Assembly: GCA_963707915.1 (NCBI GenBank)
Contig: OY970178.1
Location: 2,784,001 to 2,848,000, forward strand
DNA: 64,000 nucleotides
Reading direction: 5' to 3'
Source of the DNA: Candidatus Eiseniibacteriota bacterium
GTDB taxonomy: Bacteria > Eisenbacteria > RBG-16-71-46
Shown here: positions 18,001-27,000 of the stretch, piece after piece
Numbering within the stretch: the stretch's first letter is position 1
Layout: each line of letters opens with the position of its first letter
Made by a program: the position numbers

Positions 18001-21000
18001 GACGCGGTCCACGTGGGAAGGCTCCAGGTCGTGGGTGGCGGCGGGATGGGCGCCGGCATCACCGAGCTCGCCAGCCGGCACGGGATCGAAGTGCGGCTGC
18101 GCGACACCGATCCGGCCGCGCTGGCGCGCGCGATGCGGGCCGTGCGCGCCAGGGTCGCGGAGCGCGCGGATCGAACCCGGGCCCCGCGGCACGAGACCGA
18201 GGGGCAGCTCGCGCGCGTCTTCCCCGGCCTGGACCTGGCCGGCCTCAAGCACGTGGACCTGGCGATCGAGGCGGTGGTGGAGGACCTGGACGTCAAGCGC
18301 CGCGTGTTCGGCGAGCTCGAGGTCCGCATGCGGCCCGACGCGGTGCTCGCGACCAACACGTCGTCGCTCCGGGTCGACGACCTGGCCGCCGGGCTCGAGC
18401 GCCCGCAGCGCTTCGTCGGGATGCACTTCTTCGACCCGGTCCACCGCATGCCGCTGGTCGAGGTGGTGCGGGGCGCGAAGACCTCGGCCGCGGCGCTGGC
18501 CACGGCCGTGACGCTGGCGCGGCGGCTGGGCAGGACCCCGGTGGTGGTGAACGACGGGCCCGGCTTCGTCGTGAACCGGGTGACGATGCCGTACCTGCGG
18601 GAGGCGCTCCACCTGGTCGAGGACGGCTACCGCGTGACCGACGTGGACGCGGCGATGCGGGCCTTCGGGATGCCGCGGGGACCCTTCGAGGTGATGGACG
18701 AGATGGGTCTCGGGGCCGTCGTCAGCCTGGCCACGGTTCTGGGCCGTGCGTTCCCCGGGCGGCTCGCGCCGGCGCCGCAACTCGAGTCCCTCGTGGCGGA
18801 GGGCTTCCTGGGCCGGAGGAGCGGGGCGGGGTTCTACCGCTACTGGGGCGGGCGGCGCACGCTCGACCCGCTGGCGGCGCGCCTGCTGCGGCCCGCGCGC
18901 GAGCGCCGGCCCGCGAGCCTCTCGGCCCTGGCCGAGAGGATGACGCTCGTCATGGTGAACGAGGCCGCGCATTGCCTCGCCGACGGCGTGGCAGCGGAAG
19001 CCGGCACGCTGGACCTGGCGCTGCTCTACGGCGCGGGGTTCCCGCCGCATCGCGGCGGCCCGTTGCGCCACGCCGACAGCCTGGGGATCGCCCGGGTGGC
19101 GGCGCGGCTGACGGCGTTGCGCGCGGAGAAGGGCGAGCGCTTCCGGCCCGCGCCGCTCATCGAGGAGCTGGCGGCCGGGGGCGGGACGTTCACCGGGTCC
19201 TGAGCCGCCGGGCCGCGCGCCCGGCCGCGGCCGGCCCCGCGCTCCGGTCACGGCCGGAACGCGGAAACGCCCGGCCGGTGGGCCGGGCGTCTGACGCGGG
19301 AGGCCGGAGCTTGCCCTCTCCGGGACCCTGCTCGCAACTCTGGAAGACTCGCACGACTGGCTCGCTTGCCACGTTCTCGTGTACGTGACACCTCTATTAA
19401 CGCTCCGGGCGCCGCACGAGTTGCAATGCGCTCGCAAAGAAAGCGTCGAAGGGGACCAGCGCGGCGGTGCGGGCCACGAGCGCGCCGCCCGGTGGGCCCG
19501 CTCCGGGACCCGCTTGACTTCCTGCTGACCTCGGGCATAGTTGATTCGGCTTTTCGGGTCCACCCCCACCGGGGTCTCTGGGAACCGGAGCCGTTCCCCG
19601 GCTCGCGGCGGCCGTCCGGCCGCACGGTGCGGGCGCGGGGGTGCTGACGGGAGCACCGGTACACGGTCATGGATCTGCCGCCGCGCTCGAGGGACTCGTC
19701 GCCTGACCGGGAGACGGGTTCTTTTCATCGGGGTGCGGAGGGTCACGAGCCGACCGCGTCCTTCGCCCGATCCACCGCGGCGGCGCTCGCGCCGGCGCGG
19801 TGCCCGATCCGGCCGGTTCCGCGCCGCACGGACCGGACCGATTCCGCTGTCCCCACCGCCGCGGGGCATTCCGGCACGCGCCGCATCGCGACCGTCCCCG
19901 GCCGGTCTTCCAGGAGACACTCATGAGCACGAAGGGGTTCAATTCGTTCGAGATCGCCCAGGCCCAGTTCGACAAGGTCGCCGCCCTGCTCGAACTGGAC
20001 GAGGGCACGCGCGAGTTCCTGCGCTGGCCGATGCGCGAGTACGCATTCAGCATCCCGGTGCGCATGGACGACGGGCACGTCAAGGTCTTCCGCGGCTTCC
20101 GCGTGCAGCACAACGACGCCCGCGGGCCTTCGAAGGGCGGCATCCGCTTCCATCCCCAGGAGACCGCGGACACGGTGCGCGCCCTGTCCATGTGGATGAC
20201 CTGGAAGTGCGCGGTGGTGGACATCCCGCTGGGCGGCGGCAAGGGCGGGGTGATCTGCGACCCGCACAACCTGAGCGCCCGCGAGCAGGAGCGGATCTGC
20301 CGCGGCTGGGTGCGGCAGCTGGCGCGCAACGTGGGCCCGGTCCAGGACGTTCCGGCTCCCGACGTCATGACCAACGCGCAGCACATGCTGTGGATGCTCG
20401 ACGAGTTCGAGACGCTGCACGGCGGCCGCTACCCCGGCTTCATCACCGGCAAGCCGGTCGGCATGGGCGGCTCGCTGGGCCGCACCGAGGCGACCGGCTA
20501 CGGCGTGGTCTTCACGCTGCGCGAGGCGCTGCGCGAACACGGCGTCGCGGTCGGGTCCACGCGCGCCAGCGTGCAGGGTTTCGGCAACGTGTCGCAGTAC
20601 GCCATCCGGCTCTACCAGCAGCTCGGCGGCAAGGTCATCTGCGTCTCCTCGTGGGACCAGAAGGACCAGGCCTCGTATTCCTTCAAGCGGGCCTCCGGCG
20701 TGGACATGGACGAGCTCGTGGGCATCACGGACGCCTTCGGCGGCATCGACAAGGAGAAGGCGAAGAAGCTCGGCTACGAGGTGCTGCCGGGCGATGCGTG
20801 GATCGAGCAGCCGGTCGAGATCCTGATGCCCTGCGCGCTCGAGAACCAGATCACCCCCGAGACCGTGAAGAAGATCCACGCGGCGGTGAAGTTCGTGGTC
20901 GAGGGCGCCAACGGACCCACCACGACCGAGGCCGACGCGGTGCTCAAGGAGCCGCGGGATCTACATGATCCCCGACTTCCTGGCCAACGCCGGCGGCGTG

Positions 21001-24000: not shown

Positions 24001-27000
24001 CTGGGTGGAGATCGACGACTTCGTGGACCTCGTGAACCACACCATCCTGCTGCCCAAGAGCCACGGCCGGGTGGGCGGCAAGGGCAGCGGGCTCCTGCTG
24101 GCGCGGCACGTCCTGCGGCGCTCCCCCCATCAGCGGGAACTGCTGGACGGCGTCAAGGTGCCGAAGACGTGGTACGTGCCCTCGGACGGGCTCCTGCAGT
24201 TCCTCGCGTACAACAACCTCGACGACGTCTACAACTGGAAGTACCGCGACCTGGACGAGATCCGGCAGGAGTACCCGCACATGCTCCAGGTCTTCAAGAG
24301 CTCGCGCTTCCCGGCCGAGTTCGTGCAGGGGCTCTCGACCGCGCTCGACGACCTCGGCGACCGGCCGCTCATCGTGCGCAGCTCGAGCCTGCTCGAGGAC
24401 CGCGCGGGCTCGGCCTTCTCGGGCAAGTACAAGAGCCTGTTCCTCGCGAACCAGGGCCGCAAGTCCGACCGGCTGGCGGCGCTGCTGGACGCCATCGCCG
24501 AGGTCTACGGCTCGGTCTTCGGCCCGGACCCCATCCAGTACCGCGCGGAGCGCGGGCTCCTCGAGCAGCACGAGGAGATGGGCATCATGATCCAGGAGGT
24601 GGTGGGGGTGCGCGCGGGCCGCTACTTCCTGCCCGCGTTCGCGGGCGTGGGATTCAGCAACAACGAGCTGCGCTGGTCGCCCCGCATCCGGCGCGACGAC
24701 GGCCTGTTGCGCCTGGTGCCCGGCCTCGGCACGCGCGCGGTGGACCGGCTGGCCGACGACTACCCGATCCTGGTCGCGCCGGGGCAGCCGGGGCTGCGCG
24801 TCAACGTCACCCCGGAAGAGGTCTTCCGCTACTCGCCGCGCAAGGTCGACGTCATCAACCTGGAGACCAACTCGTTCGAGACCGTGGACCGCCACGCCCT
24901 GCTGAAGGAGATCGAGGGACAGTTCCCCGGGCTCACCCGGGCGGTCTCGGTCTACGAGCACGACATGCTGCGGCGCCCCGGCGGCCTGGACCTGCGCTTC
25001 AACGAGGACAAGCTGGTCTTCACCTTCGAGGGCCTGCTGACGGGCACGGACTTCCTGCCGCGCATGCAGGCCATCCTCAACGTGCTGCGCGAGGCGCAGG
25101 GCGTGCCGGTGGACATCGAGTTCGCCTCGGACGGGCGCGACCTCTACCTGCTGCAGTGCCGGCCCCAGAGCCACGCGGCGGACACCGCTCCCGCGTCCAT
25201 CCCGCGCGACCTGCCGCCGGAGCGCGTGGTGTTCTCGGCCAACCGCTACGTCTCGAACGGCGCCGTGCCCGACATCACGCACATCGTCTACGTGGACCCC
25301 GAGGGCTACAGCCGGCTGGGCGACATGGGCGAACTGCGCGACGTGAGCCGGGCCGTCGGCAGCCTCAACCAGATCCTGCCCAAGCGCCAGTTCATCCTCA
25401 TGGGGCCGGGGCGCTGGGGCAGCCGCGGCGACGTCAAGCTGGGCGTGAGCGTGACCTACTCCGACATCAACAACACGGCGGTGCTGATCGAGGTCGCGCG
25501 CAAGGCGGGCAACTACGTCCCGGACCTCTCGTTCGGCACGCACTTCTTCCAGGACCTGGTGGAGTCCGGGATCCGCTACCTGCCGCTCTACCCCGACGAC
25601 GCGGGCATCGTCTTCAACGAGCCGTTCCTCCGCCGGTCCGCGAACGTCCTGGCGCGCCTGCTGCCGGACCTCGCGCACCTCGAGGAGGTCGTGCGCGTGA
25701 TCGACGTGCCGGAGTCCACCGGCGGCCAGGTCCTGCGATTGCTCATGAACGCCGACCTGGACGAGGCGGTGGGCGTGCTGGCGCCGCCGGGCGCGGCGGC
25801 GGTCACCTCGGCCACCCTGCCGGGTCCCTCGGCGCGCCCGTCCGAGGACCACTGGCGATGGCGGCTGCGCATGGCGCAGAAGGTCGCCGCGGACCTCGAT
25901 CCGGCGCGCTTCGGCGTCCAGGCGTTCTACGTCTTCGGCAGCACCAAGAACGCCTCGGCCGGGCCGGGCAGCGACATCGACGTCATCCTCCACCTCCGGG
26001 GGACGCCGGAGCAGCGGCGAGATCTGGAGTTGTGGCTCGAGGGCTGGAGCCTGTGCCTCGGGGAGATGAACTACCTGCGCACGGGCTACCCGAGCGAGGG
26101 GCTGCTGGACGTGCACCTCGTCACCGACGAGGACATCGAGCGGCAGGGCAGCTACGCCGCGAAGATCGGGGCCATCACGGACGCGGCGCGTCCGCTCACG
26201 ATGGGACGCCCGGCGGCGGGATGAGCGCGCGGGTCGCCTGCCCGGGCGACTCGAGGTCGAAGCGCACCAGCGCCAGCTCGTCGCCGTCGTGGGCGGCCGA
26301 GAGGCAGTGCGTGCGCCCGAGCCGGTCGCGCCAGTGCCCGGTGAGCCGCGCCGACTCGTGCACGTGGCCGTGGAGCGTGAGCAGCGGCTGGCGCGCCTCG
26401 ATGAAGCGCCGGATGGCGATGCTCCCCACGTGCACGTCGAGCGGCGCGTGGTCCACGGCCATGCCGTCGAGCGCCGCCCGGTCGAGCCGCGTGTCGTAGG
26501 GCGGCGCGTGGAAGAGGAGGACCGCCCGCGCGAGGTCGGCGTCGCCGGCGAGGCGCTCGAGGTCCTCGCGGATCGTGGCGTTGCGCGCCTCGCCCTCGCG
26601 CAGCGGGACCGTGCGCCAGCCCTCCTCGGGCGAGGTGCAGCCGGGGTCCACGTGGCGCGAGACGTCGTAGCGCTCCCAGTCCTTGAGCGCGAACGGCGTG
26701 GGCGGCACGAAGGCGTAGCCGAAGACCGTCCAGTCGCCGAAGGGGATGCGCCGTCCGTGCGCGTACTCCCAGGCGCCCGCTTCGGCGGCCTCCAGCACGC
26801 TCTCCTCCTCGGCGCGCCCGTCGTCGTTGCCGAGGAGGAGGAAGACGCGCGGGGCCGTGGCGCCGAGGTCGCGGCGCACGCGGGCGAAGCCCGGGGCGAG
26901 GACGTCCCGCACGAAGCCGCCGTCCGTGGCCCCGACCGCCGCGCCGAGGCCGGAGGGCAGGAGGTCCCCGCCCAGGAACACGGCGGCCGGCCGCTCGGCC

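What a model noticed while it worked through the whole genome (the two positions that open the first line are those of the whole stretch)
19923..26224. Conserved gdh operon with two giant dikinase-like ATP-grasp proteins, one carrying GAF sensor and MNT-type nucleotidyltr [...]
Glutamate dehydrogenase g02316 is followed, with a 27-nt gap and a 4-nt overlap, by g02317 (594 aa) and g02318 (1059 aa), two uncharacterised paralogues built on the PPDK/PEP-synthase/rifampin-phosphotransferase ATP-grasp domain with an invariant G-[ST]-H-F-F motif further on; g02318 adds an N-terminal GAF-like sensor and a C-terminal minimal nucleotidyltransferase (MNT/AMPylase-like). A second, partly broken pair gdh + dikinase-like gene lies at 300632-305057 (g00224-g00226). 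The three-gene unit is kept in order across many phyla, which predicts an undescribed ATP-dependent (phospho- or nucleotidyl-transfer) control or partner system of GDH, possibly sensing 2-oxoglutarate through the GAF d [...]
Evidence so far: Pfam PPDK_N in g02317 (32-408), g02318 (342-719), g00224 (438-815); NTP_transf_2 955-993 in g02318. Of the 80 best g02317 loci in GTDB species genomes (Acidobacteriota, Ignavibacteria, Bacteroidota, Calditrichia, Planctomycetota, Zixibacteria, Fibrobacterota, Aminicenantes, Anaerolineae, Alphaproteobacteria...) 73 have gdh directly upstream, 76 the g02318 N-terminal region and 71 its C-terminal NTase directly downstream; several misses are loci cut by contig ends, not all were checked. 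neighbours.tsv: PPDK_N within 2 genes of ELFV_dehydrog in >=8418 genomes. Mean column identity across phyla 66% (g02317), 72% (g02318), 83% (GDH). AlphaFold2 + Foldseek: both best match rifampin phosphotransfe [...]
(Added by a program. Inside this text positions count along the whole contig: contig position 2,784,001 is position 1 of the stretch shown here. "Call 12" and the like, gene names such as g00115 and contig names such as C1 are that model's own, and its searches are not shown. The text may have been shortened before it was handed on; [...] marks where a part breaks off. The agent that wrote the report below was given it as the finding of a first reader that could run no searches.)

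Follow-up and report, generated by a model that had tools for sequence, protein, structure and literature searches.

The report
GDH-linked dikinase-like sensor module
A special version of the central nitrogen enzyme glutamate dehydrogenase is encoded, in bacteria of many phyla, beside two unstudied ATP-using sensor proteins and a phosphoesterase that most likely switch or tune this enzyme in a way nobody has described.

Summary

Corrections:
- The window's gdh carries one extra G at 20951. Its true stop is 21210, so the spacer is 53 nt and holds a GC hairpin.
- A fourth conserved gene was missed, a convergent metallophosphoesterase at 26196-27074, found in 51 of 80 loci.
- The NTase and protein A are optional. 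One relative has gdh followed by a B that lacks the NTase.
- The linked GDH is its own clade. It is 76-100% identical within the clade but 45-50% to the ordinary GDHs of the same order. It has private insertions and was found in exactly the 14 of 61 sampled genomes that have B.

Both paralogues keep the dikinase ATP-grasp catalytic motifs. Each also has a C-terminal domain with an invariant S-x-G-x-H-F-F, which gives only a weak fold match to the PPDK phosphohistidine domain and no sequence match. B has a true GAF fold.

Best reading (0.45): sensor-controlled, His-phosphorylating, dikinase-derived regulators of GDH, working like VadK. The function is inferred, not shown.

This scan noted the same module before in other genomes. 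I found no paper on it.

The parts
19514..19541 (+). Only sigma-70-like promoter match upstream of gdh (TTGACT-16-CATAGT). It is a weak consensus hit.
   Evidence: 1 found against 0.2 expected in shuffles
19923..21210 (+). Module-type glutamate dehydrogenase gene. It would encode 428 aa, but one extra G at 20951 breaks the frame in this assembly.
   Evidence: Relatives L004 and L005 have an intact 428-aa gene.
20649..20678 (+). Codons for the module-specific GDH loop: insertion 243-248 (S-W-D-Q-K-D) up to the conserved Y252. This is a candidate docking or modification site by inference only.
   Evidence: insertion present in 38 module GDHs and absent from 15 ordinary GDHs. W244, Q246 and D248 invariant, Y252 at 90% or more.
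21217..21249 (+). GC-rich hairpin in the 53-nt gdh-A spacer. It may be an attenuator or partial terminator, and it has no T-run.
   Evidence: (MFE -46.1 kcal/mol for 21200-21275, z -2.06)
21264..23048 (+). Protein A (594 aa). It has a dikinase-type ATP-grasp (residues 32-408) and a C-domain (409-594). The C-domain carries GRWGS and S-Q-G-A-H524-F-F; the His codon is 22833-22835.
23045..26224 (+). Protein B (1059 aa). Domains: GAF fold 9-143, helical region about 157-331, ATP-grasp 342-719, C-domain 720-905 and Pol-beta NTase 906-1059. The C-domain carries GPGRWGS and S-F-G-T-H833-F-F (His codon 25541-25543). The NTase carries G965-S, D977, D979 and D1022.
26196..27074 (-). Calcineurin-like metallophosphoesterase (292 aa). 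It is convergent with B, overlaps B's 3' end by 29 nt, and keeps all its metal ligands.
   Evidence: (PF00149, E 3.1e-7)

Best explanation
The locus encodes a four-part module:
- a dedicated clade of glutamate dehydrogenase;
- two paralogous dikinase-derived proteins, A and B;
- a metallophosphoesterase.

Each of A and B is a core made of a PPDK/RPH-type ATP-grasp and a C-terminal domain. I propose that the C-terminal domain carries a phosphoryl group on its invariant histidine (H524 in A, H833 in B). No PEP/pyruvate-type or rifampin-type substrate domain is present. The acceptor would therefore be supplied in trans, most likely GDH itself or a GDH-bound state.

B adds a GAF sensor that would gate activity in response to a small metabolite. 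In most lineages B also carries a Pol-beta nucleotidyltransferase as a second modifying activity. The phosphoesterase would reverse the modification. A and B would act as a heteromer.

The net effect would be signal-dependent tuning of GDH, by phospho- or nucleotidyl-transfer or by phosphorylation-dependent binding. This resembles VadK acting on methylcitrate-cycle enzymes.

Shown here: gene anatomy, domain folds, conserved catalytic motifs, synteny, fusions and clade co-occurrence.

Inferred: histidine phosphorylation, the A-B complex, GDH as the target, the role of the phosphoesterase as eraser, and the ligand of the GAF domain.
For: Linkage:
- gdh lies directly upstream in 69 of 80 loci. 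Two more (L028, L066) have it adjacent and divergent, and two (L011, L061) have it 4.3 kb upstream. Four misses are cut by contig ends.
- A different GDH family (GdhA type) lies directly upstream of the receiver-type paralogue in 14 of 16 relatives' loci that have upstream room, and also in L072.
- In an order sample of 61 genomes, the high-scoring module GDH (844-883 bits, plus two partial matches) occurs in 14 genomes. These are the same 14 that have a B-type match. Ordinary GDHs score 387-458 bits.
- Module GDH is 76-100% identical to the L004 GDH, while ordinary GDHs of the same order are 45-50% identical. The module GDH has private insertions at 243-248, 280-283 and 319-320.

A and B work together:
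- The junction is mostly an ATGA overlap or an 8-nt overlap.
- In-frame A-B fusions occur in L018 and in four representative clusters, P0005, P0006, P0007 and P0041.

Chemistry:
- Both ATP-grasps keep GGK, VRSS, (D/E)xEF and LQxRP, read against the genome's own PPDK.
- S-x-G-x-H-F-F is invariant across A, B and the receiver type in 65 sequences.
- The C-domain directly follows PPDK_N in 21 of 21 varied architectures.

Regulatory character:
- N-terminal modules vary: receiver-like, DUF5752-like.
- Hairpins or T-run terminators lie between gdh and A in several lineages.

Eraser candidate:
- The phosphoesterase is in 51 of 80 loci and adjacent to B in 46. It is the only other widely conserved neighbour. 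Its metal ligands are invariant.

Precedents in print:
- VadK is a truncated PPDK that autophosphorylates His422 and binds neighbouring methylcitrate-cycle enzymes (PMC13400623; abstract and passages read).
- SelO AMPylates and inactivates mammalian GDH (PMC12375108; passages read).
Against: - No experiment exists for any member, and no GDH modification has been shown.
- The C-domain has no sequence similarity to PEP-utilizers. PF00391 finds only two other genes in this genome. hhalign against swivel domains of relatives gives probability 0.4%. A profile search of PDB sequences finds nothing.
- In the model of B, the GRWGS and GTHFF loops have pLDDT below 50.
- The module is patchy. It was found in 14 of 61 genomes of the order, so it is accessory.
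- NTase, A and the phosphoesterase are each missing from some loci. No single fixed mechanism fits all of them.
- A conserved beta subdomain inserted in the ATP-grasp (about residues 245-345 of A, with the FWAVNMG motif) could equally be a small-molecule site.
- Two loci with room upstream (L009, L081) have no gdh nearby.
Confidence: 0.45

Rival explanations
1. Metabolic partnership. A and B form a small-molecule dikinase or ligase that acts on a GDH substrate or product, or a close derivative (2-oxoglutarate, glutamate). They would make a phosphorylated or adenylylated metabolite, which the phosphoesterase later hydrolyses. GAF and receiver domains would act only as allosteric regulators of the enzyme.
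For: - The nearest folds are all small-molecule dikinases: RPH, HpeI, PEPS and PPDK.
- Two-component small-molecule dikinases exist (HpeHI; PMC12167813, abstract read).
- The full ATP-grasp catalytic set is kept in both paralogues.
- A conserved inserted subdomain in the ATP-grasp could hold a substrate (Q278, F281-G287, E297 and E299 invariant).
- Metallophosphoesterases often act on small phosphoesters (family knowledge, recalled).
- Very high conservation across phyla (62-66% mean column identity) is usual for enzymes.
Against: - Pfam finds no recognisable substrate-binding third domain and no HpeH-like partner in the module.
- Variable N-terminal sensor modules and terminator-like hairpins after gdh fit a low-abundance regulator better.
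- Two unrelated GDH families each have their own paralogue, and the module GDH has private surface insertions. A shared metabolite pool would not require either.
Confidence: 0.25
2. The target is elsewhere. The A/B/phosphoesterase set is a signalling device whose output is not GDH. For example, the NTase could make a nucleotide signal that the phosphoesterase destroys, or the pair could modify another protein. gdh would be linked only by co-regulation in amino-acid or nitrogen catabolism.
For: - The NTase and the phosphoesterase tend to go together. The phosphoesterase was found in 51 of 67 informative loci, all of which have the NTase, and in 0 of 3 NTase-less loci.
- L009 and L081 keep A-B without a nearby gdh.
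- In L017, B lies 2.9 kb away from A.
Against: - The module GDH clade and B-type co-occur without exception in the order sample: both in the same 14 genomes, neither in the other 47.
- A second GDH family is paired with the NTase-less receiver type.
- No other conserved neighbour exists that could be the target.
- The NTase is a minimal Pol-beta type with only weak similarity to any solved family. It was not shown to be cyclase-like.
Confidence: 0.15
3. The synteny is an inherited accident, a mobile cassette carried as a block, with no functional coupling between GDH and the neighbouring genes.
For: - Distribution within the order is patchy (14 of 61).
- Module GDH is 63-95% identical to the window's GDH across phyla, while ordinary GDHs of the same order are only 45-50% identical to the L004 module GDH. 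This suggests horizontal spread of the block.
Against: - Order and orientation are kept across at least ten phylum-level labels in the record titles, despite rearrangements that still keep gdh adjacent (divergent in L028 and L066).
- An independent second pairing exists with another GDH family.
- A and B show translational coupling and fusions.
Confidence: 0.05

Closest known systems
VadK (Rv1127c) of Mycobacterium tuberculosis, a truncated PPDK acting as a regulatory histidine kinase (PMC13400623; abstract and passages read)
   Same: - It has a dikinase ATP-grasp plus a histidine-bearing domain and no PEP/pyruvate domain.
- It is encoded beside the metabolic enzymes it controls.
- The proposed logic is the same: ATP-dependent His phosphorylation tunes flux.
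   Different: - VadK keeps a canonical PPDK central domain, whereas here the C-domain has no sequence match to PF00391.
- Here there are two paralogous cores, plus GAF or receiver-like sensors, an optional NTase and a phosphoesterase.
- The partner enzyme is GDH, not the methylcitrate-cycle enzymes.
Rifampin phosphotransferase (RPH) and the two-component dikinase HpeHI (PMC12167813; abstract read)
   Same: - The conserved nucleotide-site motifs are the same.
   Different: - No rifampin-binding or HpeH-like substrate domain is present.
- No TSH-type swivel motif is present.
- The partner is an enzyme gene, not a catabolic or resistance context.
PPDK / PEP synthase
   Same: - PPDK_N is found by Pfam.
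- The catalytic K, R, acidic pair and Q-x-R are kept.
- The domain order is ATP-grasp followed by a roughly 180-aa domain that weakly matches the PPDK phosphoryl-carrier domain.
   Different: - The PEP-utilizers (PF00391) and PEP-utilizers_C domains were not detected.
- NCBIfam scores are 45-52 bits against cut-offs of 598-883.
GlnE/GlnD control of glutamine synthetase, and PtsP (EI-Ntr, GAF + PEP-utilising enzyme); both recalled from textbook knowledge
   Same: - A nitrogen-assimilation enzyme is controlled by Pol-beta nucleotidyltransferases.
   Different: - There is no sequence relationship beyond the generic NTase and GAF folds.
- The target here would be GDH.
- The NTase is optional here.
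SelO AMPylation of mammalian GLUD1 (PMC12375108; passages read)
   Same: It is a precedent that GDH activity can be switched off by nucleotidylation.
   Different: - SelO is a pseudokinase-fold AMPylase and is unrelated to these proteins.
- Its site lies in the antenna, which bacterial GDHs lack (the last point is recalled).

Membership tests
PEP-utilising dikinases (PPDK/PEPS/RPH) | PPDK_N-type ATP-grasp nucleotide domain | tested here: met
   [not shown]
PEP-utilising dikinases (PPDK/PEPS/RPH) | ATP-site catalytic residues (Lys of GGK, Arg of VRS, acidic pair, Gln-x-Arg) | tested here: met
   Invariant K36, R127, E374, E376, Q401 and R403 in A. Invariant K346, R445, D690, E692, Q704 and R706 in B. 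Equivalence was read by eye against the genome's own PPDK. The roles of the residues are recalled from PPDK mutant work.
PEP-utilising dikinases (PPDK/PEPS/RPH) | PEP-utilizers swivel domain with a T-S-H phosphohistidine motif | tested here: inconclusive
   [not shown]
PEP-utilising dikinases (PPDK/PEPS/RPH) | Third, substrate-binding domain (PEP-utilizers_C barrel or rifampin-binding domain) | tested here: not met
   No Pfam or NCBIfam match beyond PPDK_N in A. NCBIfam alignments cover only the N-terminal third of the PEPS and RPH models. No room is left in A after the C-domain.
Two-component small-molecule dikinases (HpeHI type) | Separate swivel and substrate-binding subunit (HpeH-like) encoded beside the ATP-grasp subunit | tested here: not met
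   The only conserved neighbours are gdh and a metallophosphoesterase.
VadK-like truncated dikinase regulators | ATP-grasp plus His domain without a PEP/pyruvate domain, encoded beside the controlled enzymes | tested here: inconclusive
   The architecture and the synteny fit. The His domain is not the canonical one.
VadK-like truncated dikinase regulators | ATP/Mg-dependent autophosphorylation on histidine | not testable with these tools
   This needs purified protein and mass spectrometry.
Pol-beta superfamily nucleotidyltransferase (minimal NTase) | hG[GS]-x(9-13)-Dh[DE]h motif plus a third acidic residue | tested here: met
   FGSTKNASAGPGSDIDV and LLDVH in B. PF01909 scores 26.5 bits on the domain alone. 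The motif is kept in 36 of 37 orthologues and is degenerate in L043.
GAF domain | GAF fold | tested here: met
   [not shown]
Calcineurin-like metallophosphoesterase | DxH, GD, GNH/D, H and GHxH metal-binding motifs | tested here: met
   PF00149 E 3.1e-7. D9, H11, D37, N83, H189, H235 and H237 are invariant in 29 orthologues.
Glu/Leu/Phe/Val dehydrogenase (hexameric GDH) | ELFV_dehydrog_N plus a complete ELFV_dehydrog domain in one frame | tested here: not met
   Both domains are present but split by a 1-nt insertion at 20951. The gene is intact in relatives. The break is probably an assembly error.

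The most novel reading that the evidence does not exclude
GDH would have its own covalent on/off switch, analogous to GlnE acting on glutamine synthetase. In this reading the A-B heteromer uses ATP to load its invariant histidines. It then phosphorylates a clade-specific surface loop of the dedicated GDH (insertion 243-248 W-D-Q-K-D with Y252), or nucleotidylates it through B's NTase. The GAF domain would gate this in response to carbon/nitrogen status, and the convergent metallophosphoesterase would remove the mark. The C-domain would then be a previously unrecognised, highly diverged class of phosphohistidine swivel domain.
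Probability: 0.2. Interest if true: 0.9.

Novelty: new variant of a known kind. Interest (0 to 1): 0.7.

Why it matters
GDH sits at the junction of carbon and nitrogen metabolism. Bacterial control of it is known only case by case, through allostery or a few binding proteins.

A dedicated, sensor-driven, ATP-consuming module would be a new layer of nitrogen and amino-acid regulation in abundant, little-cultured soil and sediment bacteria. The record titles of the related loci name Acidobacteriota, Bacteroidota, Ignavibacteria, Calditrichia, Planctomycetota, Zixibacteria, Eisenbacteria, Fibrobacteraceae, Anaerolineae, Alphaproteobacteria and others.

It would also extend the recent idea, from VadK, that dikinase cores have been recruited as regulatory histidine kinases. 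It would give a function to a large protein family: 7925 of 8000 scored candidate clusters at E <= 1e-30, and 2431 representative clusters for the C-domain. These proteins are now named only 'hypothetical' or 'PEP/pyruvate-binding domain-containing protein'.

Tried and rejected
- **Complex prediction.** GDH (alignment A4, residues 11-428) with A (alignment A1, residues 9-590) scored ipSAE 0.12 and 0.16, below the mark of 0.32, so there is no verdict. No A-B or B-GDH job was possible because the cap is one job.
- **C-domain by sequence.** A profile of 65 sequences against PDB sequences gave only chance-level hits. hhalign against 17 swivel domains from relatives' PPDK and PtsI genes gave probability 0.04% in global mode and 0.4% in local mode.
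- **Atlas look-up of the C-domain** returned unnamed clusters only.
- **Rfam on 19000-27300** found nothing at E <= 1.
- **Terminator scan** found no T-run terminator in the window.
- **Public reads.** No run held the stretch closely; the best share of words was 0.21. The laid contigs came from relatives, so the frameshift could not be checked in the source organism. Parts without cover mean nothing.
- **Phosphoesterase and NTase profiles against PDB sequences** gave nothing better than E 0.02-0.03.
- **Open frames of 1600-1676 aa** reported around B in relatives are not taken as fusions. A's own frame ends with a stop there, and long open frames are expected at 72% GC.
- **VIA-align lists** are filled by the ATP-grasp and GAF domains. 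The helical region, the C-domain of B and the NTase were barely tested by fold.
- **Literature.** Searches found no paper on the module.

Full report
**1. What is in the window**

A is 21264-23048 (594 aa) and B is 23045-26224 (1059 aa), and they overlap by ATGA.

Pfam finds these domains:
- PPDK_N in A, residues 32-408, E 2.8e-34.
- PPDK_N in B, residues 342-719, E 8.7e-53.
- NTP_transf_2 in B, residues 955-993, 22.7 bits against a cut-off of 21.
- GAF in B only below its cut-off, E 0.041.

NCBIfam gives 45-52-bit partial matches to PEP synthase, PigC/RedH and RPH models whose cut-offs are 598-1350 bits. Neither protein is therefore a member of those equivalogs. A and B are paralogues over ATP-grasp plus C-domain (28% identity, E 4e-34).

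Upstream lie a thiolase gene and a FadB-like gene, followed by a 720-nt gap. Downstream on the other strand lie tilS, hpt and ftsH.

**2. The gdh gene is broken in this assembly**

The called ORF 19923-21236 matches ELFV_dehydrog only to profile position 158 of 241. Positions 159-241 are read in the +1 frame, 20953-21210. Against the nearest relatives, L004 and L005, the window has one extra G at 20951. A relative's contig in a public run lacks the same base.

The true stop is therefore 21210. The gdh-A spacer is 53 nt, not 27, and holds a GC-rich hairpin at 21217-21249. The stretch 21200-21275 folds at -46.1 kcal/mol, z -2.06.

The second gdh, a GdhA type at about C1:303680-305147 on the minus strand, has an in-frame TAG where relatives have Tyr, plus one frameshift.

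Compared with L004 over about 20 kb, one other gene (12730-14647, minus strand) is also frameshifted. That makes three lesions in 2.7 kb of gdh DNA, against one in roughly 25 kb of other coding DNA that I compared. The 25 kb is my own rough tally.

All same-genus relatives have intact copies. The genome is a single 3.6-Mb contig at 94.8% completeness. I therefore think consensus errors at very conserved genes are more likely than real decay, but this is not settled.

**3. Synteny**

I examined 80 loci; 291 stretches were confirmed and the best 80 kept.
- gdh lies directly upstream on the same strand in 69.
- In L028 and L066 it is adjacent but divergent.
- In L011 and L061 it is 4.3 kb upstream.
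- L060, L062, L068 and L077 end at the contig edge, and L072 has only 105 nt upstream.
- L009 and L081 have room but no gdh.
- B's N-terminus follows A in 75 loci. Four of the five misses are at contig ends, and in L017 B lies 2.9 kb further on.
- The NTase is found in 69 loci.
- The A-B junction is mostly a 4- or 8-nt overlap.

The record titles name Eisenbacteria, Acidobacteriota, Bacteroidota, Ignavibacteria, Calditrichaceae, Planctomycetota, Fibrobacteraceae, Zixibacteria, Aminicenantes, Anaerolineae, Alphaproteobacteria, Coatesbacteria, KSB1 and Dormibacterota. All are MAGs, and Acidobacteriaceae dominate the list, so the rows are not independent.

**4. A fourth gene**

The ORF 26196-27074 on the minus strand is a calcineurin-like metallophosphoesterase (PF00149, E 3.1e-7). 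It is convergent with B and overlaps B by 29 nt.

Across the 80 loci it is distributed as follows:
- convergent and adjacent in 43;
- adjacent on the same strand in 3;
- nearby in 5;
- absent despite more than 1 kb of room in 16;
- not assessable in 13.

An all-against-all clustering of neighbouring ORFs found no other widely shared neighbour. The next cluster, found in 26 loci, lies mostly on the strand opposite the phosphoesterase and is probably its shadow frame, which I did not check. Every further cluster is in 12 loci or fewer. The metal ligands are invariant in 29 orthologues. No solved relative is detectable by sequence.

**5. Anatomy of A and B**

- *Models.* A has mean pLDDT 85.6 and pTM 0.87. 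B has 79.0 and 0.64, with low confidence at 792-809 and 817-834.
- *ATP-grasp motifs.* Both keep GGK, VRSS, an acidic pair in (D/E)xEF, and LQxRP. From recalled PPDK mutagenesis, these are the residues that handle ATP and the pyrophosphoryl-histidine step.
- *C-domain.* After the ATP-grasp comes a domain of about 185 aa. Its invariant residues across A, B and the receiver type (65 sequences) are L, G-R (in GRWGS), G, E and S-x-G-x-H-F-F.
- *C-domain by sequence.* It has no sequence relative among solved structures and is not seen by PF00391. hhalign against swivel domains of relatives gives probability 0.4%.
- *C-domain family.* In a search of 1.84 billion representatives it has 2431 clusters at E <= 1e-3. 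In 21 of 21 varied hits that I scanned, it directly follows PPDK_N.
- *NTase.* The motif is intact in 36 of 37 orthologues.

**6. Variants that constrain the mechanism**

- A and B are fused in frame in L018 and in four representative clusters of 1484-1654 aa, each with two PPDK_N stretches. This supports joint action.
- In G025, gdh is followed directly by a 925-aa B that has no NTase, and no A was found in that genome (99% complete) with the query used.
- NTase-less B forms also occur in L048, L053, P0034 and P0102.
- The three NTase-less loci show no phosphoesterase. With so few and related cases, this is only a hint that the NTase and the phosphoesterase go together.
- The receiver-type paralogue (P0004, 992 aa) has a single core and no NTase.
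- The common denominator is therefore: sensor module + ATP-grasp + C-domain, next to a GDH.

**7. The GDH is special**

In 61 genomes of the order (one of them, G014, is unpublished), the GDH profile gives three score classes:
- 844-883 bits in 12 genomes, plus partial matches in G000 and G041;
- 387-458 bits in nearly all genomes;
- about 207-217 bits for the GdhA type.

The 14 genomes of the first class are exactly the 14 with a B-type match.

Module GDHs are 76-100% identical to the L004 GDH, while the ordinary ones are 45-50% identical. Module GDHs carry private insertions at 243-248 (W244, Q246 and D248 invariant, followed by Y252), at 280-283 and at 319-320, plus a C-terminal W-V.

The GdhA type lies directly upstream of the receiver type in 14 of 16 relatives' loci that have upstream room.

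Two GDH families each have their own paralogue, and the clade co-occurs strictly with B. These are the strongest arguments that the link is to the GDH protein, not merely to its pathway.

**8. Expression hints**

In 56 gdh-A spacers, 32 fold at better than -0.35 kcal/mol per nt (no shuffle control was run). L012, L016, L049, L055 and L073 show a hairpin followed by a T-run. The window has one promoter-like site, at 19514-19541, and no T-run terminator. gdh may thus be expressed well above A and B.

One 558-nt contig of a relative, from a metatranscriptome library, spans the gdh end, the spacer and the start of A. This does not prove a single transcript.

**9. Reading and novelty**

The most economical model is a VadK-like, sensor-controlled, dikinase-derived regulator set for a dedicated GDH. 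The NTase and the phosphoesterase would be accessory writer and eraser.

I give 0.45 to regulation of the GDH protein, 0.25 to a metabolic small-molecule role, 0.15 to another target and 0.05 to no coupling. The rest is left open.

No paper on the module turned up. Databases name the proteins 'hypothetical' or 'PEP/pyruvate-binding domain-containing protein' in the 120 best hits.

Earlier notes of this scan describe the same module in eight other genomes. They gave me the VadK lead and prompted the phosphoesterase check, both of which I then tested myself.

Noticed in passing
window 12730-14647 (-), near 14108-14130: A gene that is a single 645-aa ORF in the relative L004 is split between two frames here. 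This is a second frameshift within about 20 kb and points to indel errors in the assembly.
   Followed up: partly
genome C1:303680-305147 (-) (outside the window; locus L115): The second, GdhA-type gdh has an in-frame TAG in place of a conserved Tyr codon, plus one frameshift. The 992-aa receiver-type partner behind it is intact. Both GDH genes of this genome are therefore broken in the assembly, and no ordinary-class GDH (387-458 bits) was matched in it or in the same-genus genomes sampled.
   Followed up: partly
window 21355 -> 23060 (joint in run X16): One contig of a relative from a metatranscriptome library joins the first 90 nt or so of A to the start of B. It skips 1704 nt and has 24 other letters in between. 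This may be an A-less variant like G025 or an assembly chimera.
   Followed up: no
window 26196-31271 (-): tilS, hpt, ftsH and the metallophosphoesterase lie head to tail on the minus strand. The phosphoesterase start is 17 nt after the ftsH stop, so in this genome the phosphoesterase may be transcribed with ftsH. No comparably widespread neighbour cluster was seen beside the phosphoesterase in other phyla.
   Followed up: partly
window 19204-19922: The 720-nt gap before gdh has the same length in L004, and similarity to L004 continues at least 216 nt upstream of the gdh start. Rfam finds nothing there.
   Followed up: partly
L043:14460-14912: In one orthologue of B the NTase motif is degenerate (G-S and D-x-D lost), while the rest of the protein is conserved.
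   Followed up: no
P0004 residues 342-411; P0048, P0096, P0101, P0109, P0145: A DUF5752-like stretch recurs just before the ATP-grasp in receiver-type and shorter relatives. Two of the hits are above Pfam's cut-off (P0101 at 27.3 bits, P0109 at 25.5 bits). Its role is unknown.
   Followed up: no
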